Positions 11,330 through 30,077 of a DNA stretch of 64,000 nucleotides are shown in pieces. The DNA is taken from the NCBI GenBank assembly GCA_004297215.1, contig SCUM01000001.1:742716-806715 (forward strand), given 5' to 3'. Under the pieces are notes generated by a model that saw only the letters and a list, made by a program, of their open reading frames with translations, made no database searches and was not told the origin of the DNA. Position numbers and translations under genes: made by a program. The DNA comes from Patescibacteria group bacterium. GTDB lineage: Bacteria > Patescibacteriota > Patescibacteriia > UBA9934 > GWF2-40-263. Each line of letters begins with the position of its first letter. The first letter of the stretch is position 1.

Positions 11330-11443
11330 CGTCCCGGGTAACGTCGGGGATGTCACCCTCGGCACATCGTACGCGGCGATGTGCCCCGACCGTCGAGACT
11401 CATCAAGGATGGGTCGCGGCGGTCGGCCAACGGGCCGAATGTA

Positions 11444-11475
11444 CCCCCTCATGCTCCCCCTTTGATAAGGGGGAG
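11444..11475. repeat. Palindromic repeat CCCCCTCATG + CTCCCCCTTTGATAAGGGGGAG upstream of giant gene 1
   Basis: Same family as 20039-20092, 36258-36334 and 55450-55508. Sits 14 nt before the ATG at 11489. Confidence 0.75.
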
Positions 11476-11488
11476 ATAGCTCGTCCGC

Positions 11489-14400
11489 ATGCTCAAGCGG
11501 TTCAAGGACAACCCGGATCACTTTTTCAGGAGGCTGTTCGCCTTCACGGCCTTGGGTCTGGTGATGGCCGGAGCGGTGTCGTACATGCTTACGGACAGTT
11601 ACCTGTCCGTCTTCGCCGTCTCTCCTCCCAACATCATCCCGTACCAAGGCCGCCTGCTCAACGCCAACGGAGTGCCCGACGCTTCCGCTTCCCGCGACTT
11701 CCAGTTCCGTTTGTACGACTCCCTAGCCGCCGGCACGTGCCTGTGGAGCAACGACGACAGCTCCTGCGCCTCCGACGCCGATTTGGCCGTGACCCTCACC
11801 GACGGGTTGTTCTCCGAGAACCTCGGCGACACCGGGGCCGGATACGCCGCCATTCCGGATTCCGTGTTCGCGGATGATGCCTCCGTGTTCCTCGAGGTGG
11901 AGGTGGAAGGGGAGGTGCTTTCCCCGAGGAAGCAGATCGGAGCCGCGGCGTATGCGTTCAATGCCGACACGCTCGACGGGATGGATTCGGCGAGTTTCGC
12001 CCTCGTGGACGACGCGTTCGTGCAGGACGGCAACAGCTTCGGGGCAACGGCCGTCATCGGCACCAACGACACCGAGGATTTCGCGATCGAGACGGACGGG
12101 ACCACGCGCATGACGGTCCTTTCAAGCGGTGAGGTCGGAATCGGCACGGCCACCCCGCTCGACACCGTCAGCATCCTCGGGACGTCGGGTTCGACCGGCA
12201 TCGGCATCGATGACAGCACCGCGGGAGGGAACACCTATCTCATCCTCAACCACATCAGCGCGTCGGATTCGAGCGAGGAGATCCTCATGAACGGCGACGG
12301 AACGATCGGACTCAACATCACCAACCAGAACTCCGGCACGCTGGGCACCGACCTCACCGACATCCCTTCGAGCGCCAACTTCTACACCAACTCCGGGAAT
12401 GCCGGCGGGCTCATCCTCGCTTCCCAGCACGCCACGGCCCCGATGATCTTCGCCACCGGCGGCATCGCCACGGGCGACGAGCGCATGCGCATCGACTCCG
12501 CCGGAAACGTCGGGATCGGCACGACGACCCCCGGCGAGACGCTGGAAGTATCCGGCACCTCGTACGTCTCCGGCCACGCCGCGATCGGCGCGGACGCGGC
12601 CGTGGACGACGGGAGCCTCCTCTATCCCGGCTCGATCTTCTCCAACACGCTCAACGTGTCCGAGCGGAGCACGGACGCGAGCGTGGACTACGTCGAGGGC
12701 ACCACCAACTACCTCCTGTACGACCCGTCGGCGGACGCCTCGGGCATCTGGGCGATCGCCCTTGATTCCGAGGCGGCCACCGAGGCGACGAACGCCGAGG
12801 ATGTCGGCACCCTGTCCGCCGGGTATTTCAACGCGACCCACAACGGGACCGGCGACATCACGAGCTGGATGTCCGGCATCGAGGCGTACGCCTTCACCAC
12901 CGCGACCGGCGGAAGCTCGGTCGAGAGCATTGCCGGATACTTCTCGCTTAGCCTGTCGGATCCCCGTTCCTCAGGCACCGAGAACAACTACGGCGTGTGG
13001 TCGGCCGTGAGCCGCACCGGCGCCACCGGCGGCACCATCAACACCTACGGCGTGTACGTGGATGACACGGGCGTGGGCAACGCGGGAGCGGGCACTTCCA
13101 CCGCCTACGGCCTGTACCTCGAGGATTTTCCGACCGCCGACGCCCAATATTCCATCTACTCCGAGGGCGGCCAAAGCTACCACGCTGGCAACTTCGGGAT
13201 CGGGGCGACCACGCCCGACGCCGACCTCGACATCGAGGCCGCCGAGGACACGGAGCGCGTGAGGCTCACGGACACGAGCAACGCGGACTCGGTCGGTCTC
13301 TATGTCGGCGACGGCACGGCAGGGCTCGACGGGACCCTCTCGGCCCAGGCGGGGAGCCTGTTCCTCGACGAGGACGGGAAGCTGTGGGTGAACATGGACG
13401 GGGCGACCAACTGGGACCAGGTGGCGACCACGGCCGGAGGCGCCCTGGACCTCGACGGGGCGTACGACAACGATTCAGACAAGAAGATGGCCGTGGACAA
13501 CGCCTCGGGCCTCGAGTTCGAGAGCTCCACGGCCGGCAACGTGTTCGTGGACCTGCAAAGCACCGGCGACTTCGTGATCCAGTCGGTTGGCACCGCCTTC
13601 GCCACCTTCAACGACTCGGGGAACGTCCTTTTCGAGAACTCGCTCACGGTCGGTTCCAGCTCCGCCGACGTCGTCCTGTTCAACGCCGACGTGGACAGCC
13701 ACTTCATCCCCGACGACGACGACACCTACGACCTGGGCGCCGACGCCCAGCGCTGGAGGGACCTCTACCTTGGGGCCGCGACCCTCCACGTCGGTTCCCT
13801 TATCGGGGACGAGGGAACCATCTCCTATGACACCGGGGCGAACGCGCTCGTCGTGAACGAGGGTGGGGCCGACACCGACTTCCGCATCGAAGGCGACACG
13901 GAGGCGAACCTCCTCTTCCTCGACGCCGGCAACGGCCGCGTGGGGATTGGTACGGCTAGCCCGACCGCGCGCGTACACGCGACCCAATCGACGGACGGCG
14001 GCGGAGGATACGTCTTCGAGAATTCGAACGCGGGAGCGTCCGCCTTTTCCGAGGTTTCCGTCGTGTCCGATGGCGCGACGGGTTCGTGGAGGTCGTTCGG
14101 CACAGGAAATACGAACCTCGGCTTTGATTCCATTTCATTAGCCGATTCCGTGGCCATCGGCGCGAATACGGATGCGACCCGCATGTTCGTGGCCACCTTC
14201 GGCACCGCACCGCTCCTCATCGGCACCAATCTCAACACGAGCGGGACGCCACCGGGGATATTCATCGACACGTCCAACAACGTTGGGATCTTCGACGAGA
14301 CCCCGTCCGCCAAACTCGACGTAGGAGGGACCTTTGCCGTGCAAGGGAATTCGACCCTCGGCAACGCCTCGGGCGACACAGTCACCTCAAACGCCGCCGC

Positions 14401-17400
14401 CTGGACGTTCGCGAATGACACCACTGTCGCGCTTTCGGGCGGCGTGAACGGCCTCAACTTCGACTCGAACACCCTTTCCATCGACGCCGCCAACAACCGC
14501 ATCGGCATCGGCACCTCGACGCCATCGCACCTCGTGGACATCAGCGCCGGCACCTCCACCGGCTTCTGGCCGCTGCACATCGCCGCGACGGTCACGGACG
14601 GGTTCGCGGGGCTGCGCGCCGACATCACGAGTTCGGACACGATCGGGAACAACCAGCTGGCCGGCCAGTTCGTCCTCGCCGCCGGCGCCACCGGGGCAGG
14701 GTATTACACGGCCCTGGACGTGGAGAACCTGGCGGCCGGCACCGGGAGCGACCTCAAGCTCGATACGTCGTCGAACGCCTCCCTCGGCAACACCGGCCTC
14801 AGCAGCCTCGCCATCGCGACCACCACGGGCCTCAACGTCGGCTCTTACATGGAGGCCGCCAACGGCGCGACGAGCGTGGGCGGGGTGGGGAAGTCCATCA
14901 CGGCCAAGGCCTCGGGGACCAACATCGGCGTCCTGGGCGTGGGCCGCAACACGAGCGTGACGTCCCCCATCGAGATCGGCGGGTACTTCGGCCTGTTCAA
15001 CTCCACCCCCACCTTCGACGCCTCCTCCGGCCTCATCGCGAGCAACGGGTCGACCACCAACAACATCTTCCTCGCCCGCGACAACAACACGACGGTGTTT
15101 TCCATCGTGGACGGGGGGAGCGTGGGCATCGGCGACGCCACCCCCGACGCCCTGCTCGACGTGGCCGGCAGTTTCCAGTTCGACGGCGACGCGACCTTTG
15201 GCGACGCGGCCACGGACAACGTGGTGTTCACGGCCGACGTGAACAGCAACATCCTCCCCAACACCGATGACACGTACACGCTCGGCGACGCGGACCAGCG
15301 CTGGGCGGATATCTTCCTCGGCCCGGCCTCCATCCATATCGGCACCTCGGCCACGAACGAGGGCGTGATCAGCTACGCGGCCGGAACCTCGCTCGATTTC
15401 GGCACGGATTCGACCACGAACGCCGACATCGCCTTTTTCACCGACGACCTCTACCTCGACAAGTCCACGGGGCGCGTGGGTGTCGGCACCGCGGCGCCCG
15501 GTTACCTCCTCGACGTGAACGGCGCCATCCGCGCCGGCACGCCGGGCACGGATGGCCAGATGCGCGTCTACTCCGAGCAGGGAGCCACCGACTACGAGGT
15601 CGTGTTCGATCCCAACGCTGCGATGACCCAGAACGTGACGTATACCCTCCCAGCCAATGACGGCGACTCCGGCCAGTTCCTCACGAGCGACGGCGCAGGC
15701 GCGCTTTCCTGGACCACCTCGGCCGGCTCCGGCGACATCACGGCCGTCGGTTCAATGACGAGCGGCGACGCGTTCGCGGATTCCTCGGCCGATGACGACT
15801 GGCTCGGTCTCGGCGTGGCCGCCGGACGCATCGAGTTCGACGACCTCGCCACCGACGAGGTGAACGTCCTTGGGGCGCGCGTCGGCGTCGGCACCTCCGC
15901 GCCGGACGCGTTGGTTGACGTGGAAGGGAGCGTGAACGGCGAGGTCGCCACTTATGCCACGAATACGAACGCGGGCACGGCGGCCTTCGCCGCCGTCAGC
16001 CTCGTGAACGACCAAGGCAATTCGTTCCGATCCTCGGTGTACATGACCAGCAGCACGTACGTGGGTTCCGGTGAAGGCGCGAACGCGCTCGTGTTGCAAA
16101 ACGGCGTGACCACGGGGCCGATCCGCTTCATGCAAGGGACCACTTCCCGCATGCTCATCGACGGCTCCGGCGACCTCTCCTGGAGCGGGAACGCGACCTT
16201 CGGCGATACCTCGGGGGACGCGATTACCGTGAATGCCGCCACTTGGACGTTCGCGAACGACACCGCGGTGGCGCTCTCGGGCGGCGAGAACGGCCTCAAT
16301 TTCGACAGCAACACCCTTTCCATCGACGCGACGAACGACCGCGTGGGCATCGGGACCGCGTCCCCGGCCGCGATGTTCCATGCGACCCGGTCGGCTCCGG
16401 CCGCCGGCGCCGAGGCCTGGGCCGAAAACACGAGCGCGACCGGCTATGCCGCCATGCTCATCGTGAATGACGCCGGGTCCGGGAGCCGCAGCGGGTTGCA
16501 ATTCGCGGGTTCGGGCTATGCCGACACCATCGTCGGGAACAACGACCTCGCCCTCACGCAGGCCACGGCCAACGACCTCCATTTCGCCACCAGCAACACG
16601 CGGCGCGTGACGCTCGACGCGTCCGGGAACCTGGGGATCGGCGACGCCACCCCCGACTACCTCCTCGACGTGGCCGGCACTCTCGGCGTGGACGGCAGCG
16701 TCACCCTCGGCGACGCGGTCACCGACAACCTCACCGTGGGCGCGGCCATCCAAGGGACGAGCGCGCTCGTGTTCGACGGCTCCACGGATGACGCTAACGA
16801 GACCACCTTCTCCATCACCAACCCCACGGCTGACAATACGATTACCTTCCAAAACGGCACGGGCACCGTGGCGTTCCTTTCTGACATCCCGGCTTCCGGC
16901 GACATCACGGCCGTCGGCTCCATGACCTCGGGCGACGCCTTCGCCGACGCCACGGCCGACGACGACTGGCTGGGCCTCGGCGCCGCGGCCGGCCGCATCG
17001 AGTTCGATGACCAGGCGACCGACGAGGTGAACATCCTATCGTCCCTCGTCGGCATCGGGACCTCGACCCCGTCGGCCATGCTTTCCGTGGGCGCCAGCTC
17101 GCAATTCCAGGTGGATAGCTCTGGAAACATCACGACCTCCGGCACTTTGGCGGTGAACGGCGGGATCATCACGGCGACCGGTTCGCTCGATATCAACTCC
17201 CTTACGACGACCGCGCTTACGCTCGACTCGGGCACGACCGGCGACGTGAATCTCGGGACAGGCGCAAACGCGAAGGCGGTCTTCGTGGGCAACAGCACCG
17301 GTGCGACGAACCTTACGTTCAATGTCGGCACCGGCGGCATCAACTTCGGCGACAACGCGAATACGAAGACGATCGACATCGGCGGGGTCACCAGCAGCGG

Positions 17401-19933
17401 CACGGACACGATCAATCTCGCGACGAACGGGACCGCCGCGGACGTCATCGCGGTCGGCAACAGCAACGCCTCCACCACGCTTGCGCTTACGGGCGGCAAC
17501 GACTGGAGCATCAGCACGGCCGGCCTCATCACTACCGCGGGCGACGTGGCGGTGAACGGCGGGGACATCACCTCCACTGGCGCGATCACCATCACCCCGG
17601 CCTCGGGATCCAACGTTGACGTGGGACTTGCGAGCACCGGTGACTTTAACGTGAATGTCAGTGGAAGCCCGGTGTTCGTCGTCTCCGAAACGGGAGTCGT
17701 CGTCGCAGACTCGAACATTTTCGTCGGCAATGCGAGTTCGTCCAACGACGATTTCCTCTATTTCGACGGCGGGACGACCGAGTCCATCCGTTGGGATGAA
17801 ACAGGGAGCGAATTCGAGGTTTCCGACGACTGGAATATCTTGGGCAACTGCCTTGAGACGGGCGTGGCCTGCGACCTGGCGGAGACGTTCTTCGCGGATG
17901 CCGGGGAGGCGCTTGAGGCGTACGACGTGGTGGTGAGCGATGCCTCTGGAACGAAGAAGGTGAAGAAGTCGTCGATGGCGTATGATTCCGGGCTCATGGG
18001 CGCGGTGTCGCTGCAGCCGGCGATCCTCATGGAAGGCAGCTACGTGGTGGTGGGCAACGACGATGCCGTGGTGGATCCGGAGCGTCCGGCCGTGGTGCTC
18101 TCCGGCGTGGTGCGCGTGAAGGTGAGCGAGGAGAACGGGGTGCCGGCCATCGGCGACATGCTCGCCACCTCAACGGTCGCGGGGCACGCCATGAAGGCCT
18201 CGCAGCCGGGCATGGCGCTTGGCCGCATGGTGGGCGGGTATACCGCGGTCAGTCCCGGCATTGCCACGGCGCTCGTGGACGTGAAGGTGGGCTGGCACTC
18301 CGGCGGCGTGATCGCCACCGACGGCACCATGGCCACGATCAATGACGATGTCGCGTTCACGGCCACTGGCACCGCCGATGGCATTACCCAAGGTTTCGAC
18401 TCCTTCGGCCTCTCCCTTCGCGGCTCGGGCTGGGACGGCGCTGCCGCCCAGGAGCGCGCCATGAAGCTCGTGACCGACGTGACGGACGCCTCCACCTACA
18501 AGCTGTCCATCCGCAACCAGTCCGACGCCGAGGTCGCCTACATCACCGACGACGGGGTGATGAGCGTGGCTTCCGACCTGGTGGTGGGAGGAAAGCTGTA
18601 CCCCTCGGCCCTGGGAGTCGCCCAGACGGACAAGTACGTCTATTACGGAGGCTCCGGCGACGACTACATGCGCACCAACGCCTCGGGCTGGGGGACCGGT
18701 AGCTACGACTTTGCGGAAATGTTCCCCTCAAGCCTGCCTCTCGAACCTGGTGAGGTGGTGGCGTTCGATACGGTTTCCGAACAGGTGAAACGCGCCTCGG
18801 GCGAGGACCGCGCGCGCCTCGCGGGCATCGTGTCCACCAAGCCCGGGTTCGTGGCCGGCAACGTGAAGGCGGGCGACCACCCGATCGCGCTCGCGGGCCG
18901 GGTGCCCACCAAGGTGTCCCTCGAGAACGGCGACATCGCCGTGGGCGACGCGCTTACCGTATCCGAAACGCAGCCAGGCTACGCCATGAAAGCCACCGAG
19001 GCCGGCATGATCATCGGCTACGCGCTTGAACCGTTTGATGGCAGTGGGTCGGTTGATGGCAGTGGGCAGTTGGCAGTTGGCAGTGGGGAAGCGATCATCG
19101 TGTTCGTTCATCTTGGCTACTGGACCGACGGAAGTCAGCCCATGGCCGGCACGGACAACGCGGCGTCCGGCTCGGGCACCGGGAGCCTGTCGGCGCTCAA
19201 CATGACCGGCAACATCTACATGCAGGGGAACCAGATCCTGAACGTCGGCGCGATTGCCGGATTGGGCGGCATCTGGAGCGTGGACGGGGAAGGGACGTTC
19301 CGCACGGAGGCGACCTACAAGACGGTCATCACCAGCTACCAGAACGAGCAGGTGGAAACGATCGCCGTCACGAGTCCGGACGTGCAGATTACGCTTCTCG
19401 GGACCGCGGAACTCGTGAACGGGGAAGCGACCGTCTCGTTCGAGTCCGTCAATCCGTCGTTCAACGACGTCACGTCCACCACGGCCCCGGTGCGCGTGCT
19501 CGTGACACCCAACGGCCCGGTGTCGCTCTATATCGTGAGCAAGGACCACAACGGGTTCACGGTCCGTCAGGTCGGCCCTTCGACAAGCTCAGGGTCTTCG
19601 ACGGATTCGAACGTGACGTTCGACTGGATGGTGAGCGCGTTCAGGAAGGATTATGAAGTGGTTGAGTCGTTGAGTGGTGGAGTGGTTGAGGAAACGGCTC
19701 CAGCCGAGGAGACGGCTCCTTCGACGGAACCGACTGTCGAAAACCCGGCCTCGACGGACACGACGGCCACGGAACCAGCTCCGTCAGAACCCGTCCCAGA
19801 ATCGCTTCCCTCTGAACCTGTCCCAGAGTCCGCTCCCTCGGAAGAACTTCCCCCTGCCGATCCAGCTCCAGCTCCTGAAGAGCCGGCTCCTCCTGCGGAG
19901 GAACCCCCGGCTCCCACGGAACCGGCGCCTTGA
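11489..19933 (+). CDS. Giant surface protein 1 (N-terminal signal anchor, conserved head domain, GIGT-type repeats, two copies of a conserved C-terminal module, Pro/Glu-rich tail)
   Basis: 2814 aa. TM anchor FAFTALGLVMAGAVSYML. Head IIPYQGRLLNANGVPD..FRLYDS..CLWSN..LSPRKQIGAAAYA. Many xVGIGTxxP repeats. C-terminal modules with DxAExF..STKPGF..ALAGRVPTKVSLENGDIAVGD..PGYAMKA..GYALEP. PE-rich end. Confidence 0.85.
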   Translation: MLKRFKDNPDHFFRRLFAFTALGLVMAGAVSYMLTDSYLSVFAVSPPNIIPYQGRLLNANGVPDASASRDFQFRLYDSLAAGTCLWSNDDSSCASDADLAVTLTDGLFSENLGDTGAGYAAIPDSVFADDASVFLEVEVEGEVLSPRKQIGAAAYAFNADTLDGMDSASFALVDDAFVQDGNSFGATAVIGTNDTEDFAIETDGTTRMTVLSSGEVGIGTATPLDTVSILGTSGSTGIGIDDSTAGGNTYLILNHISASDSSEEILMNGDGTIGLNITNQNSGTLGTDLTDIPSSANFYTNSGNAGGLILASQHATAPMIFATGGIATGDERMRIDSAGNVGIGTTTPGETLEVSGTSYVSGHAAIGADAAVDDGSLLYPGSIFSNTLNVSERSTDASVDYVEGTTNYLLYDPSADASGIWAIALDSEAATEATNAEDVGTLSAGYFNATHNGTGDITSWMSGIEAYAFTTATGGSSVESIAGYFSLSLSDPRSSGTENNYGVWSAVSRTGATGGTINTYGVYVDDTGVGNAGAGTSTAYGLYLEDFPTADAQYSIYSEGGQSYHAGNFGIGATTPDADLDIEAAEDTERVRLTDTSNADSVGLYVGDGTAGLDGTLSAQAGSLFLDEDGKLWVNMDGATNWDQVATTAGGALDLDGAYDNDSDKKMAVDNASGLEFESSTAGNVFVDLQSTGDFVIQSVGTAFATFNDSGNVLFENSLTVGSSSADVVLFNADVDSHFIPDDDDTYDLGADAQRWRDLYLGAATLHVGSLIGDEGTISYDTGANALVVNEGGADTDFRIEGDTEANLLFLDAGNGRVGIGTASPTARVHATQSTDGGGGYVFENSNAGASAFSEVSVVSDGATGSWRSFGTGNTNLGFDSISLADSVAIGANTDATRMFVATFGTAPLLIGTNLNTSGTPPGIFIDTSNNVGIFDETPSAKLDVGGTFAVQGNSTLGNASGDTVTSNAAAWTFANDTTVALSGGVNGLNFDSNTLSIDAANNRIGIGTSTPSHLVDISAGTSTGFWPLHIAATVTDGFAGLRADITSSDTIGNNQLAGQFVLAAGATGAGYYTALDVENLAAGTGSDLKLDTSSNASLGNTGLSSLAIATTTGLNVGSYMEAANGATSVGGVGKSITAKASGTNIGVLGVGRNTSVTSPIEIGGYFGLFNSTPTFDASSGLIASNGSTTNNIFLARDNNTTVFSIVDGGSVGIGDATPDALLDVAGSFQFDGDATFGDAATDNVVFTADVNSNILPNTDDTYTLGDADQRWADIFLGPASIHIGTSATNEGVISYAAGTSLDFGTDSTTNADIAFFTDDLYLDKSTGRVGVGTAAPGYLLDVNGAIRAGTPGTDGQMRVYSEQGATDYEVVFDPNAAMTQNVTYTLPANDGDSGQFLTSDGAGALSWTTSAGSGDITAVGSMTSGDAFADSSADDDWLGLGVAAGRIEFDDLATDEVNVLGARVGVGTSAPDALVDVEGSVNGEVATYATNTNAGTAAFAAVSLVNDQGNSFRSSVYMTSSTYVGSGEGANALVLQNGVTTGPIRFMQGTTSRMLIDGSGDLSWSGNATFGDTSGDAITVNAATWTFANDTAVALSGGENGLNFDSNTLSIDATNDRVGIGTASPAAMFHATRSAPAAGAEAWAENTSATGYAAMLIVNDAGSGSRSGLQFAGSGYADTIVGNNDLALTQATANDLHFATSNTRRVTLDASGNLGIGDATPDYLLDVAGTLGVDGSVTLGDAVTDNLTVGAAIQGTSALVFDGSTDDANETTFSITNPTADNTITFQNGTGTVAFLSDIPASGDITAVGSMTSGDAFADATADDDWLGLGAAAGRIEFDDQATDEVNILSSLVGIGTSTPSAMLSVGASSQFQVDSSGNITTSGTLAVNGGIITATGSLDINSLTTTALTLDSGTTGDVNLGTGANAKAVFVGNSTGATNLTFNVGTGGINFGDNANTKTIDIGGVTSSGTDTINLATNGTAADVIAVGNSNASTTLALTGGNDWSISTAGLITTAGDVAVNGGDITSTGAITITPASGSNVDVGLASTGDFNVNVSGSPVFVVSETGVVVADSNIFVGNASSSNDDFLYFDGGTTESIRWDETGSEFEVSDDWNILGNCLETGVACDLAETFFADAGEALEAYDVVVSDASGTKKVKKSSMAYDSGLMGAVSLQPAILMEGSYVVVGNDDAVVDPERPAVVLSGVVRVKVSEENGVPAIGDMLATSTVAGHAMKASQPGMALGRMVGGYTAVSPGIATALVDVKVGWHSGGVIATDGTMATINDDVAFTATGTADGITQGFDSFGLSLRGSGWDGAAAQERAMKLVTDVTDASTYKLSIRNQSDAEVAYITDDGVMSVASDLVVGGKLYPSALGVAQTDKYVYYGGSGDDYMRTNASGWGTGSYDFAEMFPSSLPLEPGEVVAFDTVSEQVKRASGEDRARLAGIVSTKPGFVAGNVKAGDHPIALAGRVPTKVSLENGDIAVGDALTVSETQPGYAMKATEAGMIIGYALEPFDGSGSVDGSGQLAVGSGEAIIVFVHLGYWTDGSQPMAGTDNAASGSGTGSLSALNMTGNIYMQGNQILNVGAIAGLGGIWSVDGEGTFRTEATYKTVITSYQNEQVETIAVTSPDVQITLLGTAELVNGEATVSFESVNPSFNDVTSTTAPVRVLVTPNGPVSLYIVSKDHNGFTVRQVGPSTSSGSSTDSNVTFDWMVSAFRKDYEVVESLSGGVVEETAPAEETAPSTEPTVENPASTDTTATEPAPSEPVPESLPSEPVPESAPSEELPPADPAPAPEEPAPPAEEPPAPTEPAP

Positions 19934-20038
19934 TCGGACCGTTCTTTCTCCCAAGTCAGATCGCAGAGGGCGACCTCGGTCGCCCGCATGCCGTGTCCAT
20001 GAAGGAACCCCACACCTTCACGGCCACACGCATGCGCT

Positions 20039-20092
20039 ACCCCCTCATGCCTGCCTGCCGGCAGGCAGGCTCCCCCCTTTGATAAGGGGGAG
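20039..20092. repeat. Composite palindromic repeat (inverted orientation) upstream of giant gene 2
   Basis: CCCCCTCATG + CCTGCCTGCCGGCAGGCAGG + CTCCCCCCTTTGATAAGGGGGAG, the reverse-complement arrangement of the copy at 55450-55508. Confidence 0.8.
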
Positions 20093-20106
20093 GTAGCGCA
20101 GCCGTT

Positions 20107-23100
20107 ATGGATCTCCTCGAACGCAAGGACCACCCGCTTTGCCGCCTGATGCAGGGGGTGGTTGCGGTCGCGTTGGTGATCACCGGAGGGATCGCCTCGA
20201 CCTGGGTGATGTTCGAGGCTCTCTCCGTCTTTGCCGTCTCTCCCCCGAATATCATCTCGTACCAGGGGAGGCTCCTCAACGCCAACGGCGTGCCGGACGC
20301 TTCCGCTTCCCGCGACTTCCAGTTCCGCTTGTACGACTCGCTGGCCGCCGGCACCTGCCTGTGGAGCAATGACGACAGCTCCTGCGCCTCCGACGCCGAT
20401 TTGGCCGTGACGCTCACCGACGGATTATTCTCCGAGAACCTGGGCGACACCGGGGCCGGGTACGCCGCCATCCCGGATTCCGTGTTCGCCGATGACGCGA
20501 GCGTGTTCCTCGAGGTGGAGGTGGAAGGGGAGGTGCTTTCGCCGCGCAAGCAGATTGGCGCCGCGGCGTACGCCATGAACGCGGATACGCTGGATGGGAT
20601 CAATTCCACGAGTTTCTTCGTCCAAAATGGCAACTCCCTCGGCGCCGCGGCCGTGCTCGGGACCAATGACGGCTTCGGACTTGAGCTGGAGACGGGCGGG
20701 ACGACGCGACTGACGTTAGGGACAAGCGGCGCGATTACCGTTCCCCTTGCCGGCTCTTTCGTATTCGATGACGATGCGACCGACGGGTTGGATGACGACA
20801 TGACCCTCGAAGTCGCCGCGTCGCTGGCGTACCCCGGATTCGACGTCACCGTCATGCATCCGTCCTTCGGATTGCTTGAACTCGTGGATCCCGTGAATAG
20901 CGCCCCGGGAATCGCGTTGCACGGCGACCTCCCAGCATACGCCATCAACGTGGATAACCCTGGAGGGGCGGGGACGGCCTTCTTTCCCATGTCGTTCTTT
21001 CGCGAGGGCGCTTCAAGTTCTCCCTTCTTCTCGATGCAGACCTATCCGGATGACGACGGTTGGGCCATCTACGGACCGAGCGTCGCTGATCCCGGGGTCA
21101 TTCAGATCCTCGAAGCCGGCACGGTGAACGCCGGTGCCTATGCCGCTCGTAGCGACGCTTCGGCGATTCCGATCCTGTGCGCGTCCACGCGGGTCGAGGA
21201 GACCGCCGCGAACCTGGTCCAGGAATCATGCTTCATGGCCGACGGTTCTCTCGACCTCGGGCTCGCGCTCGCGGGCACGGACACGACCGTGGCCCAAGGC
21301 GGCATCGAGCGGTCCAGCGGATCGGACGAGACCTTCGCCTTCGCGAACCAGGGCGCGGGAGTCCTTTCTCTGACCGCGGATGGCACGGTGGACGTCTCCG
21401 GCCACGCCGCCATCGGCGCGGACGCGCTGATTGATGACGGAGGCCTCCTCTATCCCGGCTCCACCTTCTCCAACACGCTCAACGTGTCCGAGCGGAGCAC
21501 GGACGCGAGCGTGGACTACGTCGAGGGCACCACCAACTACCTCCTGTACGACCCGTCGGCGGACGCCTCAGGCATCTGGGCGATCGCCCTCGATTCCGAG
21601 GCGGCCACCGAGGCGACGAACGCCGAGGACGTCGGCACCCTGTCGGCCGGGTATTTCAACGCGACCCACAACGGGACAGGCGACATCACGAGCTGGATGT
21701 CCGGCATCGAGGCGTACGTCTACACCACTGCGACCGGCGGGAGTTCGATCTCGAACATCGGCGGGTATTTCTCGGTCACCGCCCAGGACCCGCGCGCCAC
21801 AGGCACCGAAGACAACTACGGCGTGTGGTCGGCCGTGCACCGCACCGGCGCCACGGGCGGCACCATCAACACGTATGGCATGTACGTGGACAACGACGGC
21901 GTGGACGCGGCCGGGGCCGGTACCTCCACCCTCTACGGACTGTTCCTCGAGAGCATGACCGGCGCGGACACCAACTATTCCATCTACTCCGCGGGCGGCC
22001 AGAGCTACCATGCCGGCAACTTCGGGATCGGGGCGACCACTCCGGACGCCGACCTCGACATCGAGGCCGCGGAGGACACGGAGCGCGTGAGGCTCACCGA
22101 CTCGAGCAACGCCGACTCCGTGGGATTGTACGTGGGCGACGGCACCGCCGGGCTCGACGGCACCCTTTCGGCCCAGGCCGGCTCCCTCTTCCTCGACGAG
22201 GACGGGAAGCTGTGGGTGAACATGGACGGGGCGACCAACTGGGACCAGGTGGCCACCACGGCCGGCGGGGGGACGGACCTCGACGGGGTGTACGACAACG
22301 ATTCGGACAAGAAGATGGCCGTGGACAACGCCTCGGGCCTCGAGTTCGAGAGCACCACCGCGGGCAACGTGTTCGTGGACCTGCAAAGCTCGGGCGACTT
22401 CGTGATCCAGTCGGTTGGCACCGCCTTCGCCACCTTCAACGACTCCGGCAACGTCAGTTTCGAGAACTCGCTCACGGTCGGTTCGAGCTCCGCCGACGTG
22501 GTGCTGTTCAACGCCGACGTGGACAGCCATTTTCTCCCCGACGACGACGACACCTACGACCTGGGCGCCGACGCCCAGCGCTGGAGGGACCTCTACCTCG
22601 GGGCCGCGACCTTGCACGTCGGTTCTCTTATCGGCGACGAAGGGACGCTCTCGTATGACAGCACGCCAAACGACTTCAATTTCGCAAATGGCGGCGCCAC
22701 GCGGATGACCATCCAAAGCGACGGCGACGTGGGAATCGGGGATTCGATGACCTCGCCCACCGCCCAGCTGCACATCAAGCAGACCGCCGCCGAGGACGCC
22801 CTGCGCGTGGACGACGAGGCGGCCGGCACCACCTATTTCGTGGTGGACGACGGCGGCAACGTGGGCATCGGGGTCACCTCCGGCCCGTCCTCCACGCTGC
22901 ACGTGGTGGGCGATACGCGCATCGGCGCCACGGATTACGTCACCATGGCGCAGGACGGCGGCGGGTTCTACGTGGAGCAGATCGGGAGTTCCGACGCGCT
23001 GCGCCCGATTCGCCTGCAGTCGCGCAACGCGGCGACCCAGTACAGCCAGTTCTTCGTGGACCCGGTGAACGGGTTCCAGTTCCTCATCAACGCCACCGGC

Positions 23101-26100
23101 GCCAACAACAACGTGGGCATCGCGGATTCCACGCCGGACAACCTGCTCGACATCCTCTCCGGTTCCGACGCCGCCCTCGCGCTTACCTCGACGGGCACGG
23201 ACACGGACCCGCTCATCAAGTTCGAGCTTGCCGACGGCACGCCTACCTTCACCTTGGGCGTGGACGATTCGGATTCGGACAAGTTCAAGATCTCCACCAC
23301 GGCGCTTGGCACGAGCGACCGCCTGGTCATCGACTCGTCCGGCTTCGTGGGCATTGGCACCTCGACGCCGGACGCGGCGTTCGACGTGGAAGCGGCCGTG
23401 GACGCCAACGGGGCGAATGTCCTGTTCGAAGCCAACGACTCGGGGGTGTCCGGCAGCTACTTCCGCATCGCCGACGGCACCGAGGCGGACACGCATTTCG
23501 TCCCCTACATCATGACGAAGGGGATCGGCACCGGGGCGGCGGACCGCGCCGGGCTGATCATCGACGCGCAGCCGGGCGAGGACGGGAGCGACGACGTCGC
23601 GGTGATCGTCGACGCGCATCTTTCCGGCGCGGCGCTCACGAGCGCGCACCTGTTCGAGGTGCGAAACGACGCGACGCCGCTGCTGCGCGTCGCAGCCAAC
23701 GGCAACCTCGTCTCGTTCGGTTCCGTCGGCATCGGGACGGGAACGCCCGGGGCCAGCCTCGACGTGGATCCCGCCAACGTCGTGGGCGGCGGCACCTCCG
23801 AGCAACCCTCGATCCTCGGATCGAACCAGGTGATTGCGCTTGCCGACGGGACGACCCGGGCGAATCAGCGCCAGTTCAAGTTCCTCGCGCCGACCCTGAA
23901 CGGGGTCGCGGGCGGAGGCACCGAAACGGTCACGGACGCGGCCACCTTCTACGTCTCCGACGCCCCGTCGGGTTCGGACATCACCTTCACCAACGGCCCG
24001 TACGCCCTGTGGGTGGATGCCGGGACGGCGCGGTTCGACGGGGACGCCATCGTGGGCGGCAGCACGTCGATCACGGAGACCCTCGCGAACGCCGGATTCT
24101 CGATTGGCGGCGACGACCTGTTCGTGGCCGGCACCGCGGGCGTGGAAGGGAACGTGTACACGGACGGGTCGTTCATCGCGGGCGCCACCCTCACGCTCGC
24201 GGATTCCGGCATCACCGAGAGCGGCGCGTTCACCTTCACCTCCCAGCTCGCCGCCGGCGGCACCACCTCTTCCGCCTACAACCTGGTCACGAGCAACGAC
24301 CTCGGTTCCGCCGACGAAGTGCTCCAGATCGGTGACTCGACAGGCACCTTCGCGACCGTCCTTGGGAACGGCAACGTCGGGATTGGAGAAGTCGACCCGG
24401 CCACGATCCTACACGTTTCCGGCACCCAGGCTCGCGTCACCATCGAGGACACGGGAAAGGGGACGGGGCCGGCCGTGCTTGGGCACGATTCCGGCATGTT
24501 GTTTCTCGAGAACAACGGCATACGCGTCATCTCCATCAACGACTCCGGCGGTTCCACGGGATTCGGCGACCAGAGCCCGAACGCCATCGTGGAAGTCGAC
24601 CAGGCCGGCGGCAGCGTCGACCCATTCCTCATCTCGAGCAACAACGGCGTGGACGGCGACCTGTTCAACGTGCAGGACGGAGGCGCCGTGGGCGTGGGCG
24701 ACGTTTCTCCGGACGCCAGGTTCGACATTGACGACGGCGCCGCGACCGGGACGATCGTGGGGGTGCTCTCGAACGCCGGGACGCAGGCCGGATCCTTGAT
24801 CGGCCTTTCGCTCGACTTCGACTCGTCGCTCGCCGGCGCCGCCAACCTGGACTTCACCGGCGTGAGGCTCCTCACCCCCAATCTCACGCAATCCACCGCG
24901 GATACCACCGACTACCTCGGGTACGACCTGGCGGCTGGCGCCATCACCCAGGACACGCTTGCCGGGACGATCAATTGGACCGGCGCGCGCATCGCCATGC
25001 CCGTGCAGGTGCAGACCACCGGCATCGTGAACACGAGCGGGCTCACGGTCACGGACAACGGGTCGAGCAACAGCGGGGTGAAGCGCGGATTGTTCGTGGA
25101 TTTCAGCGGCATCCAAAGCGGCGGGACCCTGGTGGGCCTTGACGTGGACAGCATCACAACCGGCGGCGGCAACGGGCTTGGCGTGCGCATCGGGTCCGGG
25201 TTCGACACGGATCTCCAGTTTGTGAACGCCGCCGCCGTCATCCGCGTTCCCAACGCGGGCACGCTCGACTTCCAGGACGCCTCGGAGAACTCCCTCATGC
25301 TGCTTACGGACGCGGGAAGCACGAGCACCCTCGACGTGAACGGCTCCATCCGCGCCGGGACGCCTGGCACGGACGGCCAGTTCCGCCTCTACTCCGAGCA
25401 GGGAGCCACGGACTACGAGGTCGCGTTCAACCCGCATGCGGCCATGACGCAGGCCACCGCCTACACCCTTCCGGCGGACGACGGCGGATCCGGCCAATTG
25501 CTCACCACCGACGGGTCCGGCGCGCTCTCTTGGTCAACCGCCGCTTCGGGCGACATCACGGCCGTGGGCTCCATGACCTCCGGCGACGCCTTCGCGGACT
25601 CCACGGCCGACGACGACTGGCTCGGCCTTGGCGCCAGCGCCGGCCGCATCGAGTTCGATGACCAGGCCACGGACGAGGTGAACATCCTCGGCGCGAACGT
25701 CGGCATTGGCACCTCGACGCCTGGTTCAACCATCGACGCCACGTCCCCGGCGACCCTCACCACGGCCTATCAGCTCCTGGCCGATTCGGTGACGGACGGG
25801 ACGGGATTGGAACTGTCCCTCGACAGCCTGAACGAGGGTTACGGCCTGCTCGTAACGAGCACGGCAGATGCGGATTACGGGTCTGACCTGGCCGGATTCC
25901 AGCAGTTCGCCGTGTCCACGGGTACCGCGACCATGGACGGGAACGTGGAGAGGATCGTTCAGAACCTGGACTCCAGTACCACGGGGACCCTCACGGTGAG
26001 CGGCAACGCGATGCGGATCCAGCGCGCGGTGAACGCCAACAGCGGCACGACCCTGGACGCGACGGGCGCGGTCATGCGTATCAGCGACCAGACCGGCGCC

Positions 26101-27555
26101 GGGACAGGGACCCTCAACTCGAGCTCGGACGTGCTTTCCCTCACCCAATTCATCACGACGAACAGCGGCGACGCGTTGGGCATCCTGCACCAGGGCACAG
26201 GCATCGGGGCCCACATCACCATGAGCACCGTGAGCGCCCCCGCATCCGGTTCCGTGGGCAACCAGGCCTTGGTGCTCGACACCAATGAGACGCAGAGCAA
26301 CGACGACATGTTCATCATCCGCTCCGACGCCGACGGCACTCCGGACACGGAGTTCATCTTCGAGGCCGACGGGGATGCCGTGGCCGACGGCAGCTTCACC
26401 GGCGGCGGGGCCGACTACGCCGAGTACTACCGTGTTTCCGACCAAGGGATTGAGGCCGGCGACGTCGTCTGCCTCGACCAGGAGAACCCTGGCGACGTCA
26501 CTCGCTGCTCCGCTTCCGCCCCTGTCCCCACCGGCGTCATCTCCACCAAGCCCGGGTTCCTCGCCAATGGCCAGGGCAGGGACGTGGCGGCCGACCCCTC
26601 GTTCAAGCCGGTCGGCCTGATGGGTCAGGTCCCGACGAAGGTCAGCCTTGAGAACGGCGACATCGCGGTCGGCGACCCCGTCGTCGCTTCCGTGACCGCT
26701 CCGGGACGCGCCATGAAGGCCGTCGAGGCCGGCCAGATCGTCGGCTACGCGCTCGAGCCCCATACCAGCCAGTCTCCTGACGCGGAGATCCTCGTATACG
26801 TGCGCCCTGGATACCACGCGGCACTCTCCTCCCAGACCGCCGCCGGCACCGACAACCGGGCTTCGGAGATCCCGTCCTCGGGCCTCACCGCGCTCAACAT
26901 GAGCGGCAACATCTACATGGCGGGCAACGGAATCCTCGACGTTGGCGCGATTGAGGGCATCGGCGCGCGCTGGTCGGTCGACGCCGATGGGAAATTCGCA
27001 ACCCAGGCTTCCTACGACGTGGTCATCAAGAGCTACCAGGACGAGGACGTGACCGTGCACGCGGTGCTCGGGCGCGAACACAAGGTGACGCTCGACGGCA
27101 CAGCGACCCTCGAGAACGGGGTCGCGACGGTCGCGTTCGAGACGGTCGACCCGCTCTTCAACGACATCACGTCGACGACGGCCGACATCCGCGTGTCCGT
27201 GACCCCCAACGGCCCCGCCTACCTCTATGTCGTCTCGAAGGACCACAACGGGTTCACGGTGCAGCAGTTGAACGGCAGCGACTCGGGCATCACCTTCGAC
27301 TGGTTCGTGAGCGCGTATCGGAAGGACTATGAGCCGGAGGTGATTGAGGTTGTTGAGGTGACGGAGGAGATGCCGGTCGAGGAATCGGTCCCGACCGAAG
27401 GACCCGTGCCGGAACCGGTCGTCGAAGAACCTGCACCTATCCAGGAGACGGCTCCCGTGACCGACCCGGCACCGACCGAGCCTGCTTCGACGGATTCGCC
27501 ACTGGTTGAAGAACCGGCGCCAGAACCGCCCCCGACAGATGAAACCCCGACATAG
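20107..27555 (+). CDS. Giant surface protein 2 (tandem paralog of giant 1)
   Basis: 2482 aa. The first ~135 aa after the TM and a ~1.3-kb internal block are near-identical to giant 1 at DNA level (20237-20610 vs 11617-11990; 21385-22650 vs 12560-13830). One C-terminal conserved module (26400-26780), conserved C-terminal domain, PE-rich tail. Confidence 0.85.
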   Translation: MDLLERKDHPLCRLMQGVVAVALVITGGIASTWVMFEALSVFAVSPPNIISYQGRLLNANGVPDASASRDFQFRLYDSLAAGTCLWSNDDSSCASDADLAVTLTDGLFSENLGDTGAGYAAIPDSVFADDASVFLEVEVEGEVLSPRKQIGAAAYAMNADTLDGINSTSFFVQNGNSLGAAAVLGTNDGFGLELETGGTTRLTLGTSGAITVPLAGSFVFDDDATDGLDDDMTLEVAASLAYPGFDVTVMHPSFGLLELVDPVNSAPGIALHGDLPAYAINVDNPGGAGTAFFPMSFFREGASSSPFFSMQTYPDDDGWAIYGPSVADPGVIQILEAGTVNAGAYAARSDASAIPILCASTRVEETAANLVQESCFMADGSLDLGLALAGTDTTVAQGGIERSSGSDETFAFANQGAGVLSLTADGTVDVSGHAAIGADALIDDGGLLYPGSTFSNTLNVSERSTDASVDYVEGTTNYLLYDPSADASGIWAIALDSEAATEATNAEDVGTLSAGYFNATHNGTGDITSWMSGIEAYVYTTATGGSSISNIGGYFSVTAQDPRATGTEDNYGVWSAVHRTGATGGTINTYGMYVDNDGVDAAGAGTSTLYGLFLESMTGADTNYSIYSAGGQSYHAGNFGIGATTPDADLDIEAAEDTERVRLTDSSNADSVGLYVGDGTAGLDGTLSAQAGSLFLDEDGKLWVNMDGATNWDQVATTAGGGTDLDGVYDNDSDKKMAVDNASGLEFESTTAGNVFVDLQSSGDFVIQSVGTAFATFNDSGNVSFENSLTVGSSSADVVLFNADVDSHFLPDDDDTYDLGADAQRWRDLYLGAATLHVGSLIGDEGTLSYDSTPNDFNFANGGATRMTIQSDGDVGIGDSMTSPTAQLHIKQTAAEDALRVDDEAAGTTYFVVDDGGNVGIGVTSGPSSTLHVVGDTRIGATDYVTMAQDGGGFYVEQIGSSDALRPIRLQSRNAATQYSQFFVDPVNGFQFLINATGANNNVGIADSTPDNLLDILSGSDAALALTSTGTDTDPLIKFELADGTPTFTLGVDDSDSDKFKISTTALGTSDRLVIDSSGFVGIGTSTPDAAFDVEAAVDANGANVLFEANDSGVSGSYFRIADGTEADTHFVPYIMTKGIGTGAADRAGLIIDAQPGEDGSDDVAVIVDAHLSGAALTSAHLFEVRNDATPLLRVAANGNLVSFGSVGIGTGTPGASLDVDPANVVGGGTSEQPSILGSNQVIALADGTTRANQRQFKFLAPTLNGVAGGGTETVTDAATFYVSDAPSGSDITFTNGPYALWVDAGTARFDGDAIVGGSTSITETLANAGFSIGGDDLFVAGTAGVEGNVYTDGSFIAGATLTLADSGITESGAFTFTSQLAAGGTTSSAYNLVTSNDLGSADEVLQIGDSTGTFATVLGNGNVGIGEVDPATILHVSGTQARVTIEDTGKGTGPAVLGHDSGMLFLENNGIRVISINDSGGSTGFGDQSPNAIVEVDQAGGSVDPFLISSNNGVDGDLFNVQDGGAVGVGDVSPDARFDIDDGAATGTIVGVLSNAGTQAGSLIGLSLDFDSSLAGAANLDFTGVRLLTPNLTQSTADTTDYLGYDLAAGAITQDTLAGTINWTGARIAMPVQVQTTGIVNTSGLTVTDNGSSNSGVKRGLFVDFSGIQSGGTLVGLDVDSITTGGGNGLGVRIGSGFDTDLQFVNAAAVIRVPNAGTLDFQDASENSLMLLTDAGSTSTLDVNGSIRAGTPGTDGQFRLYSEQGATDYEVAFNPHAAMTQATAYTLPADDGGSGQLLTTDGSGALSWSTAASGDITAVGSMTSGDAFADSTADDDWLGLGASAGRIEFDDQATDEVNILGANVGIGTSTPGSTIDATSPATLTTAYQLLADSVTDGTGLELSLDSLNEGYGLLVTSTADADYGSDLAGFQQFAVSTGTATMDGNVERIVQNLDSSTTGTLTVSGNAMRIQRAVNANSGTTLDATGAVMRISDQTGAGTGTLNSSSDVLSLTQFITTNSGDALGILHQGTGIGAHITMSTVSAPASGSVGNQALVLDTNETQSNDDMFIIRSDADGTPDTEFIFEADGDAVADGSFTGGGADYAEYYRVSDQGIEAGDVVCLDQENPGDVTRCSASAPVPTGVISTKPGFLANGQGRDVAADPSFKPVGLMGQVPTKVSLENGDIAVGDPVVASVTAPGRAMKAVEAGQIVGYALEPHTSQSPDAEILVYVRPGYHAALSSQTAAGTDNRASEIPSSGLTALNMSGNIYMAGNGILDVGAIEGIGARWSVDADGKFATQASYDVVIKSYQDEDVTVHAVLGREHKVTLDGTATLENGVATVAFETVDPLFNDITSTTADIRVSVTPNGPAYLYVVSKDHNGFTVQQLNGSDSGITFDWFVSAYRKDYEPEVIEVVEVTEEMPVEESVPTEGPVPEPVVEEPAPIQETAPVTDPAPTEPASTDSPLVEEPAPEPPPTDETPT

Positions 27556-27575
27556 CGTCGGGGTTTTGCTATACT

Positions 27576-29969: not shown

Positions 29970-29974
29970 TCGAC

Positions 29975-30001
29975 AAAAAAGCCGCCCGGAGGCGGCTTTT
30001 T
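29975..30001. terminator. Bidirectional rho-independent terminator
   Basis: AAAAAAGCCGCCCGGAGGCGGCTTTTTT, a perfect GC hairpin flanked by an A-run and a T-run, between the + strand CDS and the minus-strand tRNA. Confidence 0.85.
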
Positions 30002-30077
30002 TGGTGGACCCTAACGGGATCGAACCGTTGACCTCTTCCATGCCATGGAAGCGCTCTACCAGCTGAGCTAAGGGCCC
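30002..30077 (-). tRNA. tRNA-Ala (anticodon GGC)
   Basis: Reverse complement GGGCCCTTAGCTCAGCTGGTAGAGCGCTTCCATGGCATGGAAGAGGTCAACGGTTCGATCCCGTTAGGGTCCACCA. G3:U70, anticodon loop ATGGCAT, CCA encoded. Confidence 0.9.

What the first reader, a model, noticed from the sequence alone, without database searches (positions are those of the whole stretch)
11489..27555. Tandem giant paralogs with mosaic near-identity: identical head (~390 bp) and a ~1.3-kb block, divergent middles
11617-11990 vs 20237-20610 and 12560-13830 vs 21385-22650 are nearly identical at nucleotide level, differing only at scattered synonymous sites. The sequence between and after these blocks is divergent. The pattern points to ongoing gene conversion or recombination between tandem 7-8-kb paralogs, a classic mechanism for surface-protein variation.
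Basis: seen in the sequence. Interest (0 to 1): 0.7.

Follow-up and report, generated by a model that had tools for sequence, protein, structure and literature searches.

The report
Mosaic giant surface-fibre genes in Uhrbacteria
Two neighbouring giant genes of a tiny groundwater bacterium encode tail-fibre-like surface fibres built from shared and private modules; the shared blocks reflect strong protein conservation plus old recombination, some of it between species, not gene conversion that is still running.

Summary
The blocks exist but are not "nearly identical". 11603-11998 vs 20221-20616 is 88.1% identical; 12564-13832 vs 21392-22660 is 89.3%. Protein identity is 98% (head) and 90% (block 2, with a 74% centre).

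The genes (2814 and 2482 aa; Patescibacteria MAG, Candidatus Uhrbacteria-related) lie between polA/holA and a TPR gene/ychF. They resemble Bdellovibrio "mosaic adhesive trimer" (MAT) fibres.

- **Age.** dS in the shared blocks is 0.14-0.54; elsewhere it is saturated. The blocks are younger than the rest, but not recent.
- **Head.** Four copies from two genomes give a star tree (84.6-88.1% nt) with an almost invariant protein (dN/dS about 0.05). That indicates purifying selection, not concerted evolution.
- **Block 2.** The closest pair switches every 200-350 nt among A, B and the A ortholog of another species. This shows past short-tract recombination.
- **Between species.** A- and B-specific "divergent middles" are 86-100% identical in protein (dS 0.08-0.3) to genes in two other Uhrbacteria lineages. 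Neighbouring housekeeping genes there are 62-84% identical, with dS 0.7-1.2. Module combinations differ between genomes.

Verdict: a recombining module pool under purifying selection. Ongoing tandem conversion is not supported.

The parts
11489..19933 (+). Giant fibre gene A (2814 aa; NCBI TAK04251.1, EPO34_03860)
   Evidence: ORF. Exact match in the protein collection. Fibre repeats hit Bdellovibrio MAT fibre chains 8OND, 8OJN and 8OL4.
20107..27555 (+). Giant fibre gene B (2482 aa; TAK04252.1, EPO34_03865), tandem paralog of A
11489..11602 (+). A signal peptide or N-terminal membrane anchor (38 aa). It differs in every copy.
   Evidence: Read from the sequence. The hydrophobic stretch ends at LSVFAV|SPPN.
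20107..20220 (+). B signal peptide or N-terminal membrane anchor (38 aa), unrelated in sequence to that of A
11603..11998 (+). Head block in A: a beta-rich domain of about 127 aa directly after the signal
   Evidence: 88.1% nt and 98% aa identity to B. AlphaFold model with 8 strands, core pLDDT about 90. Found N-terminally in 29 Patescibacteria homologs.
20221..20616 (+). Head block in B
12563..13831 (+). Block 2 in A (aa 359-781). It ends in the motif DDDDTYDLGADAQRWRDLYLG.
   Evidence: 89.3% nt and 90% aa identity to B, ungapped in protein. The closest relative switches along the block.
21391..22659 (+). Block 2 in B (aa 429-851)
12623..12860 (+). Youngest A-B shared tract inside block 2 (partner is B 21451-21688)
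   Evidence: 97% identity in 120-nt windows, with a 105-nt perfect run from 12637. A' is the odd one out here. dS is 0.14 for aa 359-470.
15508..15897 (+). Further A/B shared module (partner is B 25329-25715, 80%). Related copies occur in C and A'.
16892..17067 (+). Further A/B shared piece (partner is B 25543-25718, 89%; C 43129-43271 is 95% identical to A here)
18698..19762 (+). Conserved C-terminal module of A (aa 2404-2758; partner is B 26404-27498, 50% aa). It includes a DYAE..GVVS.P-type region related to Peptidase_G2 intramolecular-chaperone regions of homologs.
19631..19930 (+). Pro/Glu-rich C-terminal tail of A. B has one at about 27319-27552 and C at its end.
11454..11475 (+). Leader hairpin CTCCCCCTT-TGAT-AAGGGGGAG, 13 nt before the A start codon. 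It overlaps the likely ribosome-binding site.
20071..20092 (+). The same leader hairpin, 14 nt before the B start codon
36342..49241 (+). Third giant paralog C (4299 aa). It has a different head type and shares several modules with A and B at 78-95% nt.
7865..11329 (+). Conserved upstream neighbour D (fn3 and CarboxypepD_reg surface protein); marks the syntenic site
   Evidence: The ortholog in L001 is 65% aa identical, dS 0.88.
27576..29969 (+). Conserved downstream neighbour F (TPR protein with a hydrophobic N-terminal region)
   Evidence: The ortholog in L084 is 62% aa identical.

Best explanation
A and B are giant members of a tail-fibre-like surface-fibre family, closest to the MAT fibres of Bdellovibrio.

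Each protein has these parts in order:
- an export signal;
- a beta-sandwich 'head' of about 127 aa, probably holding the fibre at the cell surface;
- a long shaft made of interchangeable modules;
- a conserved C-terminal module followed by a Pro/Glu-rich tail.

The A/B mosaic has two causes.
1. The cell-proximal modules (head and block 2) are kept almost invariant at the protein level by purifying selection.
2. Modules have been exchanged in the past by homologous recombination in tracts of a few hundred bases or more. Exchange occurred among the paralog types A, B and C, and also between related Uhrbacteria lineages.

As a result each genome carries a different combination of well-conserved modules.

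Shown here: the mosaic itself, the synonymous-site ages, the switching of closest relative, the cross-species conservation and the different chimeras.

Inferred only: the fibre's trimeric form, its surface location and a role in attaching to a host or partner cell.
For: **Block coordinates and identities:**

**Synonymous divergence between A and B.**
- Head: dS 0.53, dN/dS 0.05.
- Block 2: dS 0.14, 0.54 and 0.34 for its three parts.
- Remainder: saturated, with four-fold-site identity 0.41-0.52 against 0.41 expected at random.

**Head across four copies.** A, B, A' and B' are 84.6-88.1% identical in nucleotides in all pairs, with no supported tree.

**Head boundary.** The block begins exactly where the divergent signal peptides end.

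**Block 2.** The closest pair switches A-B, A-A', B-A', A-B along the block. Permutation p < 5e-5.

**Syntenic relative L001, Candidatus Uhrbacteria bacterium RIFCSPHIGHO2_01_FULL_63_20.**
- polA, holA, two unnamed ORFs and D are 65-78% aa identical, dS 0.9-1.2.
- Long A segments are 92-97% aa identical, dS 0.1-0.3.
- Four-fold-site identity is 0.776 in the modules against 0.509 in the neighbours (Fisher p = 1e-30).
- Among windows that are all at least 90% aa identical, synonymous identity is heterogeneous (p = 5.6e-5).

**Third lineage L084.** B aa 740-1745 is 86-100% aa identical with dS 0.08-0.35. The adjacent F is 62% aa identical and YchF 84%.

**Codon bias.** It is similar in fibre and housekeeping genes (effective number of codons 31-42), so it does not explain the low dS.

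**Different chimeras.**
- B' of L001 is a head joined to a module otherwise found in the C-type gene of L084.
- B'' of L084 has a C-like module where B has most of block 2.
- After the end of block 2, A groups with A' (89%), B groups with B'' (93%), and A versus B is at random level.

**Family resemblance.**
- PDB hits to Bd2133 and other MAT chains.
- MAT features taken from PMC10769870.
- Head fold model.
- Conserved N-terminal position of the head in 29 homologs.
- C-terminal module shared with those homologs.

**Site synteny.** Other Uhrbacteria carry one fibre gene of 1233-1353 aa at the same site.
Against: - Only three related lineages could be recovered, and two of them are cut inside the giant genes. 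Donor, recipient and direction of exchanges are therefore unknown.
- Genome-wide divergence between the MAGs was judged from about 10 kb of flanking genes only.
- dS came from Nei-Gojobori counts in a genome with 87% GC at third positions. Absolute values are rough and 'saturation' is approximate.
- Selection on synonymous sites of the fibre genes is not formally excluded.
- Membership in the MAT family rests on short repeat hits and on architecture. Pfam finds no domain in A or B, and the S74 motif is absent.
- Module borders are not enriched at the repeated GIGTxxP motif, so what guides recombination is unknown.
- No expression, localisation or population data were available.
Confidence: 0.65

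Rival explanations
1. Ongoing intragenomic gene conversion between the tandem paralogs keeps the two blocks alike and produces surface variation.
For: - The genes are tandem, on the same strand, with shared blocks and sharp borders.
- The blocks have lower dS than the rest of the genes.
- In 12563-12860 and 13463-13700, A is closer to B than to its ortholog A', including a 105-nt identical run.
Against: - The blocks are only 88-89% identical, and the youngest tract has dS 0.14.
- The head gives a star tree. In L001 the two heads of one genome are the least similar pair, at 84.6%.
- Other parts of block 2 group A with A' or B with A'.
- All modules are under purifying selection.
Confidence: 0.12
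2. There has been no recombination at all. An ancient duplication was followed by very uneven constraint, so that only the head and block 2 stayed recognisable.
For: - The head protein is almost invariant, with dN/dS of 0.05.
- The head starts at a functional boundary, the end of the signal peptide.
- The four head copies are about equally distant from each other.
Against: - Constraint on the protein does not lower synonymous divergence, yet four-fold-site identity is 0.69-0.89 in the blocks against 0.41-0.52 elsewhere.
- The closest relative switches within block 2.
- dS is heterogeneous among equally conserved windows.
- Fibre modules are younger than the neighbouring housekeeping genes in two other lineages.
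- Module combinations differ between genomes.
Confidence: 0.1
3. The pattern is an assembly or binning artefact: reads of co-occurring strains were collapsed or joined wrongly inside repetitive giant genes.
For: Related contigs break inside these genes. L001 ends 940 nt into B', and L084 and L085 both start and end inside giant genes. This shows the genes are hard to assemble.
Against: - The shared segments are about 90% identical rather than 100%. Assemblers do not merge sequences that different.
- Both ORFs are intact for 7.4 and 8.4 kb on an 842-kb contig.
- The same module borders recur in independent assemblies. L084 and L085, from different assembly records, are identical over 13,957 nt, and the block-2 end junction is the same in three lineages.
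Confidence: 0.03

Closest known systems
MAT (mosaic adhesive trimer) fibre proteins of Bdellovibrio bacteriovorus (Caulton et al. 2024, PMC10769870; PDB 8OND, 8OJN, 8OL4)
   Same: [quoted passage not shown]
- The fibre shaft carries ..G(N)VGIGTxxP..L.V repeats, which give direct sequence hits to MAT crystal chains (E 3.6e-7).
- Several paralogs per genome share fibre parts and differ in others ('chimeric' or 'mosaic').
- The family is related to phage tail fibres.
   Different: - A, B and C are 2.5 to 4 times longer (2482-4299 aa against about 1000).
- They occur in Patescibacteria, which are thought to have a single membrane.
- Two of them are tandem at a conserved housekeeping site.
- There is no S74 SDxxxK motif. 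Instead there is a C-terminal module related to Peptidase_G2-type regions, then a small conserved domain and a Pro/Glu-rich tail.
- Homology of the head to the Bdellovibrio N-terminal domain was not established (hhalign probability 67% over 34 columns against a Bdellovibrionales protein).
- Trimer formation and surface display are untested.
Mosaic phage tail-fibre genes (modular exchange between phages; conserved virion-attachment N-terminus and variable distal parts). From general knowledge.
   Same: - The proximal part is conserved and the downstream modules are interchangeable.
- Borders between near-identical and unrelated sequence are sharp.
- The DDDTYDLG..WRDLY motif at the end of block 2 recurs in 80 marine metagenome contigs.
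- The proteins end with intramolecular-chaperone-type C-terminal regions.
   Different: - The genes are chromosomal in a cellular genome, between polA/holA and ychF, with no phage genes nearby.
- A scan of viral contigs with the head found nothing.
- The genes are far longer than phage fibre genes.
Concerted evolution or gene conversion in tandem bacterial surface-protein paralogs (for example the opa, pil, vlp and msp families). From general knowledge.
   Same: Paralogs share conserved blocks that flank variable regions, and there is evidence for short recombination tracts.
   Different: - There are no silent cassettes and no near-identical tracts.
- Within-genome copies are not more alike than between-genome copies.
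- The variable regions are themselves conserved across species.

Membership tests
MAT fibre family (PMC10769870) | N-terminal export signal | tested here: met
   Every copy has a basic N-terminus followed by a hydrophobic stretch of 19-22 aa ending at LSVFAV|SPPN. This was read from the sequence; no dedicated signal-peptide predictor was available.
MAT fibre family (PMC10769870) | Conserved beta-rich domain of about 130 aa directly after the signal peptide, without PDB homologues | tested here: inconclusive
MAT fibre family (PMC10769870) | Fibre shaft homologous to MAT beta-helix repeats | tested here: met
   phmmer of A aa 1-834 against PDB sequences hits 8OND (bd2133) at E 3.6e-7 in three stretches, 8OJN at 0.0023 and 8OL4 at 0.0052.
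MAT fibre family (PMC10769870) | Trimeric fibre displayed on the cell surface | not testable with these tools
   This needs a multimer structure prediction or an experiment.
MAT fibre family, S74 subgroup | C-terminal S74 chaperone/protease with the SDxxxK motif | tested here: not met
   A, B and C have no SD.R.K or similar motif, and Pfam gives no hit even at E up to 10. UniRef does label the ortholog A' 'Peptidase S74 domain-containing protein'. The proteins would fit the non-S74 subgroup at best.
Peptidase_G2 intramolecular-chaperone region (PF11962) | Match to the Pfam model | tested here: inconclusive
   There is no direct Pfam hit in A or B. A aa 2407-2570 aligns by BLASTP (E 1e-9 to 1e-15, 32-36% identity) to regions of P0004, P0009, P0018 and P0042 that do pass the PF11962 cut-off.
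Concerted evolution by gene conversion between tandem paralogs | Paralogs within a genome are closer to each other than to their orthologs in a related genome | tested here: not met
   In the head, A-B is 88.1%, A'-B' 84.6%, A-A' 87.9% and B-B' 85.1%, and informative sites split 6/5/12. In block 2 the criterion is met only in two sub-tracts (12563-12860 and 13463-13700) and reversed elsewhere.
Concerted evolution by gene conversion between tandem paralogs | Converted tracts have much lower synonymous divergence than the flanking sequence | tested here: met
   dS is 0.14-0.54 in the blocks and saturated outside them. The lowest value is still far from zero, so the events are old.
Cassette-type antigenic or phase variation | Silent partial cassettes donating to one expression locus | tested here: not met
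   A, B and C are all full-length ORFs with their own start codon, signal peptide and leader hairpin. Repeat searches found no truncated copies within the window.

The most novel reading that the evidence does not exclude
Related Uhrbacteria lineages share a common pool of giant-fibre modules that moves between species by homologous recombination. The fibre modules, and the small surface-protein genes H and I, would then be the youngest and best-conserved DNA of the locus (dS 0.1-0.3) within genomes whose housekeeping genes are near synonymous saturation. This would amount to gene-specific spread of host-attachment structures among co-occurring episymbionts.
Probability: 0.45. Interest if true: 0.6.

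Novelty: new member of a known kind. Interest (0 to 1): 0.45.

Why it matters
Patescibacteria (the candidate phyla radiation) are thought to live attached to other cells, and how they recognise and hold partners is largely unknown.

These genes are plausible attachment fibres built on the same plan as the prey-recognition fibres of Bdellovibrio and as phage tail fibres.

If modules do move between lineages while each stays under purifying selection, partner range in these uncultured bacteria could evolve by reshuffling a conserved toolkit rather than by point mutation. The nearly invariant head would then be a handle for finding the unknown surface element that anchors such fibres.

For genome annotation, the case shows that mosaic similarity between tandem paralogs should not be read as ongoing conversion without checking synonymous sites and orthologs.

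Tried and rejected
- **Codon bias as the cause of low dS:** rejected. The effective number of codons and third-position GC are alike in fibre and housekeeping genes.
- **GIGTxxP repeat motif as the recombination junction:** not supported. Module borders are no closer to the motif than random positions.
- **Close relatives in metagenomes:** It returned only distant marine contigs that match block-2 residues about 350-421.
- **Viral origin:** a scan of viral contigs with the head found nothing. PHROGs gave one weak family of unknown function for A and none for B.
- **Pfam on whole proteins and sub-regions:** no family for A or B.
- **Recovering DNA for a third A-type N-terminus (P0122):** not on record.
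- **Protein database searches:** they listed no hits much longer than the query. The giant relatives B and A' never appeared, although both are in the collection.
- **Promoter and terminator scan of 11000-30500:** nothing above background between A and B.
Full report
**The observation.**
Two tandem + strand ORFs, A (11489-19933, 2814 aa) and B (20107-27555, 2482 aa), are present as described. blastn of A against B finds these matches:
- 11603-11998 vs 20221-20616: 88.1% over 396 nt, no gaps.
- 12564-13832 vs 21392-22660: 89.3% over 1273 nt.
- 15508-15897 vs 25329-25715: 80%.
- 16892-17067 vs 25543-25718: 89%.
- Weaker C-terminal matches.

The blocks are therefore real and far beyond chance, but they are not nearly identical. 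At the protein level the head (aa 39-165) is 98% identical. Block 2 (A aa 359-781) is 90% identical: its ends are 94-96% and its centre is 74%. Elsewhere A and B are 20-35% identical, except for a C-terminal module at about 50-60%.

**Genomic setting.**
The window is a cellular genome of about 65% GC. It carries polA, holA, ychF and a class II aminoacyl-tRNA synthetase.
- A and B are exact matches to TAK04251.1 and TAK04252.1 of a Patescibacteria MAG, on an 842-kb contig.
- The site is syntenic in Uhrbacteria: polA, holA, rmuC, two small ORFs, surface protein D, the fibre gene(s), a TPR protein, then ychF.
- Two other genomes hold a single fibre gene of 1233 or 1353 aa at this site.
- The window and its relative L001 hold tandem giants.
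- A third giant, C (36342-49241, 4299 aa), has the same overall plan but another head type.

**What the proteins are.**
Pfam finds nothing in A or B. A sequence search of the PDB hits crystal chains of Bdellovibrio MAT fibres: 8OND (bd2133) at E 3.6e-7, plus 8OJN and 8OL4. The hits run through the ..GNVGIGTxxP..L.V fibre repeats.

The MAT paper (PMC10769870) defines the family by four features:
- a signal peptide;
- a trimeric fibre;
- a variable tip, which either has an S74 chaperone or does not.

A and B compare as follows.
- They have an N-terminal hydrophobic signal.
- The head is N-terminal in 29 Patescibacteria homologs at 45-70% identity.
- The S74 motif is absent.
- The C-terminal module (A aa 2381-2770) is shared with those homologs at 33-50% identity.
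- That module is related to regions that Pfam calls Peptidase_G2 intramolecular-chaperone domains.

I file A and B as MAT-like fibres. Full membership is not proven.

**How old the shared blocks are.**
Nei-Gojobori estimates for A against B are in the table.

| Region | dS | dN/dS |
|---|---|---|
| Head | 0.53 | 0.05 |
| Block 2, aa 359-470 | 0.14 | 0.25 |
| Block 2, aa 471-570 | 0.54 | 0.36 |
| Block 2, aa 571-781 | 0.34 | 0.09 |

In the rest of the genes, four-fold-site identity is 0.41-0.52, against 0.41 expected from base composition. That is saturation. The blocks therefore share ancestry more recently than the rest, which selection on the protein alone cannot explain. None of them is recent.

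**Test for concerted evolution.**
L001 (Candidatus Uhrbacteria bacterium RIFCSPHIGHO2_01_FULL_63_20) carries an ortholog A' (2545 aa) and the first 940 nt of a second gene, B'.
- The four heads are 84.6-88.1% identical in nucleotides in every pair.
- 71 of 87 variable sites are third codon positions.
- Informative sites split 6 (AB|A'B'), 5 (AA'|BB') and 12 (AB'|BA').
- This is a star-like pattern. It shows no within-genome homogenisation.
- The head block starts exactly where the signal peptides end, and those differ in all copies. That is a functional border.

Within block 2 the closest pair switches along the sequence:
- A-B in 12563-12860 (97%, with a 105-nt identical run);
- A-A' in 12863-13220;
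- B-A' in 13223-13460;
- A-B again in 13463-13700.

The clustering of site patterns is significant: permutation p < 5e-5, and chi-square on equal bins p = 1.7e-4. Short-tract recombination has therefore occurred, but not as a continuing process confined to the tandem pair.

**The larger pattern.**
Between the window and L001, the flanking genes polA, holA, two ORFs and D are 65-78% identical in protein, with dS 0.9-1.2. A and A', by contrast, contain long segments at 92-97% protein identity and dS 0.1-0.3. These segments include the region between head and block 2 that is 'divergent' between A and B. They are interrupted by unalignable stretches.
- Pooled four-fold-site identity is 0.776 in these modules against 0.509 in the neighbours (p = 1e-30).
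- Synonymous identity is heterogeneous even among windows that are all at least 90% identical in protein (p = 5.6e-5).

A third lineage (L084 and L085) shows the same thing for B.
- B aa 740-1745 is 86-100% identical, dS 0.08-0.35.
- The adjacent TPR gene is 62% identical and YchF 84% (dS 0.7-1.0).

Codon bias does not differ between the gene classes.

Module combinations differ between genomes.
- B' is a head joined to a module that sits in the C-type gene of L084.
- B'' has a C-like module where B has most of block 2.
- Downstream of the block-2 end, A groups with A' (89%) and B with B'' (93%), while A against B is at random level.

They are found between lineages rather than within a population.

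**Conclusion.**
The finding is a correct sighting of mosaic similarity, with an over-stated degree of identity and an interpretation that is only partly right. The best reading is as follows.
- A family of MAT-like giant fibre genes is assembled from a pool of modules, each under purifying selection.
- The modules have been exchanged by homologous recombination among paralog types and among related Uhrbacteria.
- The cell-proximal head and block 2 are the most constrained modules.

Ongoing tandem gene conversion and fast 'variation' are not supported. They cannot be excluded without read-level data. The biological role, attachment to a host or partner cell, is inferred from the resemblance to MAT fibres and phage tail fibres.

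**Limits.**
- Only three relatives were recovered, and two are truncated.
- Divergence between genomes was judged from local flanks only.
- dS estimates are rough at 87% third-position GC.
- No population data, multimer models or experiments were available.
- The protein searches listed no hits much longer than the query, and the giant relatives B and A' never appeared in them.

Noticed in passing
window 11454-11475, 20071-20092, about 36290-36320, and 55450-55471: A G/C-rich hairpin, CTCCCCCTT-(3-4 nt)-AAGGGGGAG, sits 13-14 nt upstream of the start codons of A and B. Two similar hairpins precede C. The 3' arm overlaps the likely ribosome-binding site. A fourth copy lies inside the aminoacyl-tRNA synthetase ORF. 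None is expected by chance. The exact 16-nt core (CCCCTTTGATAAGGGG) was absent from all 86 fetched loci, including L001 and L084.
   Followed up: partly
window 31967-37004: This island is 85-90% nt identical to lineage L084. It includes an ORF of 219 aa (32767-33426), H (34101-35258; dS 0.28), I (35280-36236; dS 0.21) and the start of C. The neighbouring TPR gene, ychF and a methyltransferase are much more diverged (62-84% aa). H resembles the N-terminus of D (33% identity). Small surface-protein genes therefore show the same 'younger than the neighbours' pattern as the giants.
   Followed up: partly
window 36342-49241: Giant C (4299 aa) contains many internal direct repeats at 78-89% nt, for example 37019-37263 vs 41609-41853 and 38633-38983 vs 40238-40585. 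This suggests growth by internal module duplication.
   Followed up: no
window 13616-13825 (block 2 residues about 352-421); loci L002-L081: The motif ..DSHFIPDDDDTYDLGADAQRWRDLYLG..HVG matches 80 mostly marine metagenome contigs at 42-68% identity over 40-70 residues. These are possibly phage tail-fibre genes. Their context was not examined.
   Followed up: no
window 19631-19930, 27319-27552, 49000-49238, and 9329-9430 (D aa 489-521): Pro/Glu-rich low-complexity tails end A, B and C. A similar stretch forms an internal linker in D, with 53-58% identity over about 33 aa to the tails of A and C. None has an LPXTG signal or a terminal membrane segment, so it is unclear which end of the fibre is anchored.
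   Followed up: no
window 31375-32586 (- strand) vs ORF 31315-32355 (+ strand): The long + strand ORF here is probably spurious. The - strand encodes a homolog (62% aa) of the N6_N4_Mtase/UPF0020 methyltransferase of L084.
   Followed up: partly
L001 end (18611); L084 and L085 both ends: Public contigs of related genomes stop inside the giant genes: 940 nt into B', inside B'' and inside C''. Fibre genes of this family are therefore systematically truncated in MAGs and under-represented in protein databases.
   Followed up: no
window 4001-6000, 32001-34000, 56001-58000: These stretches have a local GC dip to 0.50-0.58, against about 0.65 elsewhere. The first holds tRNA-Arg(CCT) and tRNA-Ala(CGC) at 5262-5513. 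A third tRNA, tRNA-Ala(GGC), lies at 30002-30077 on the - strand.
   Followed up: no
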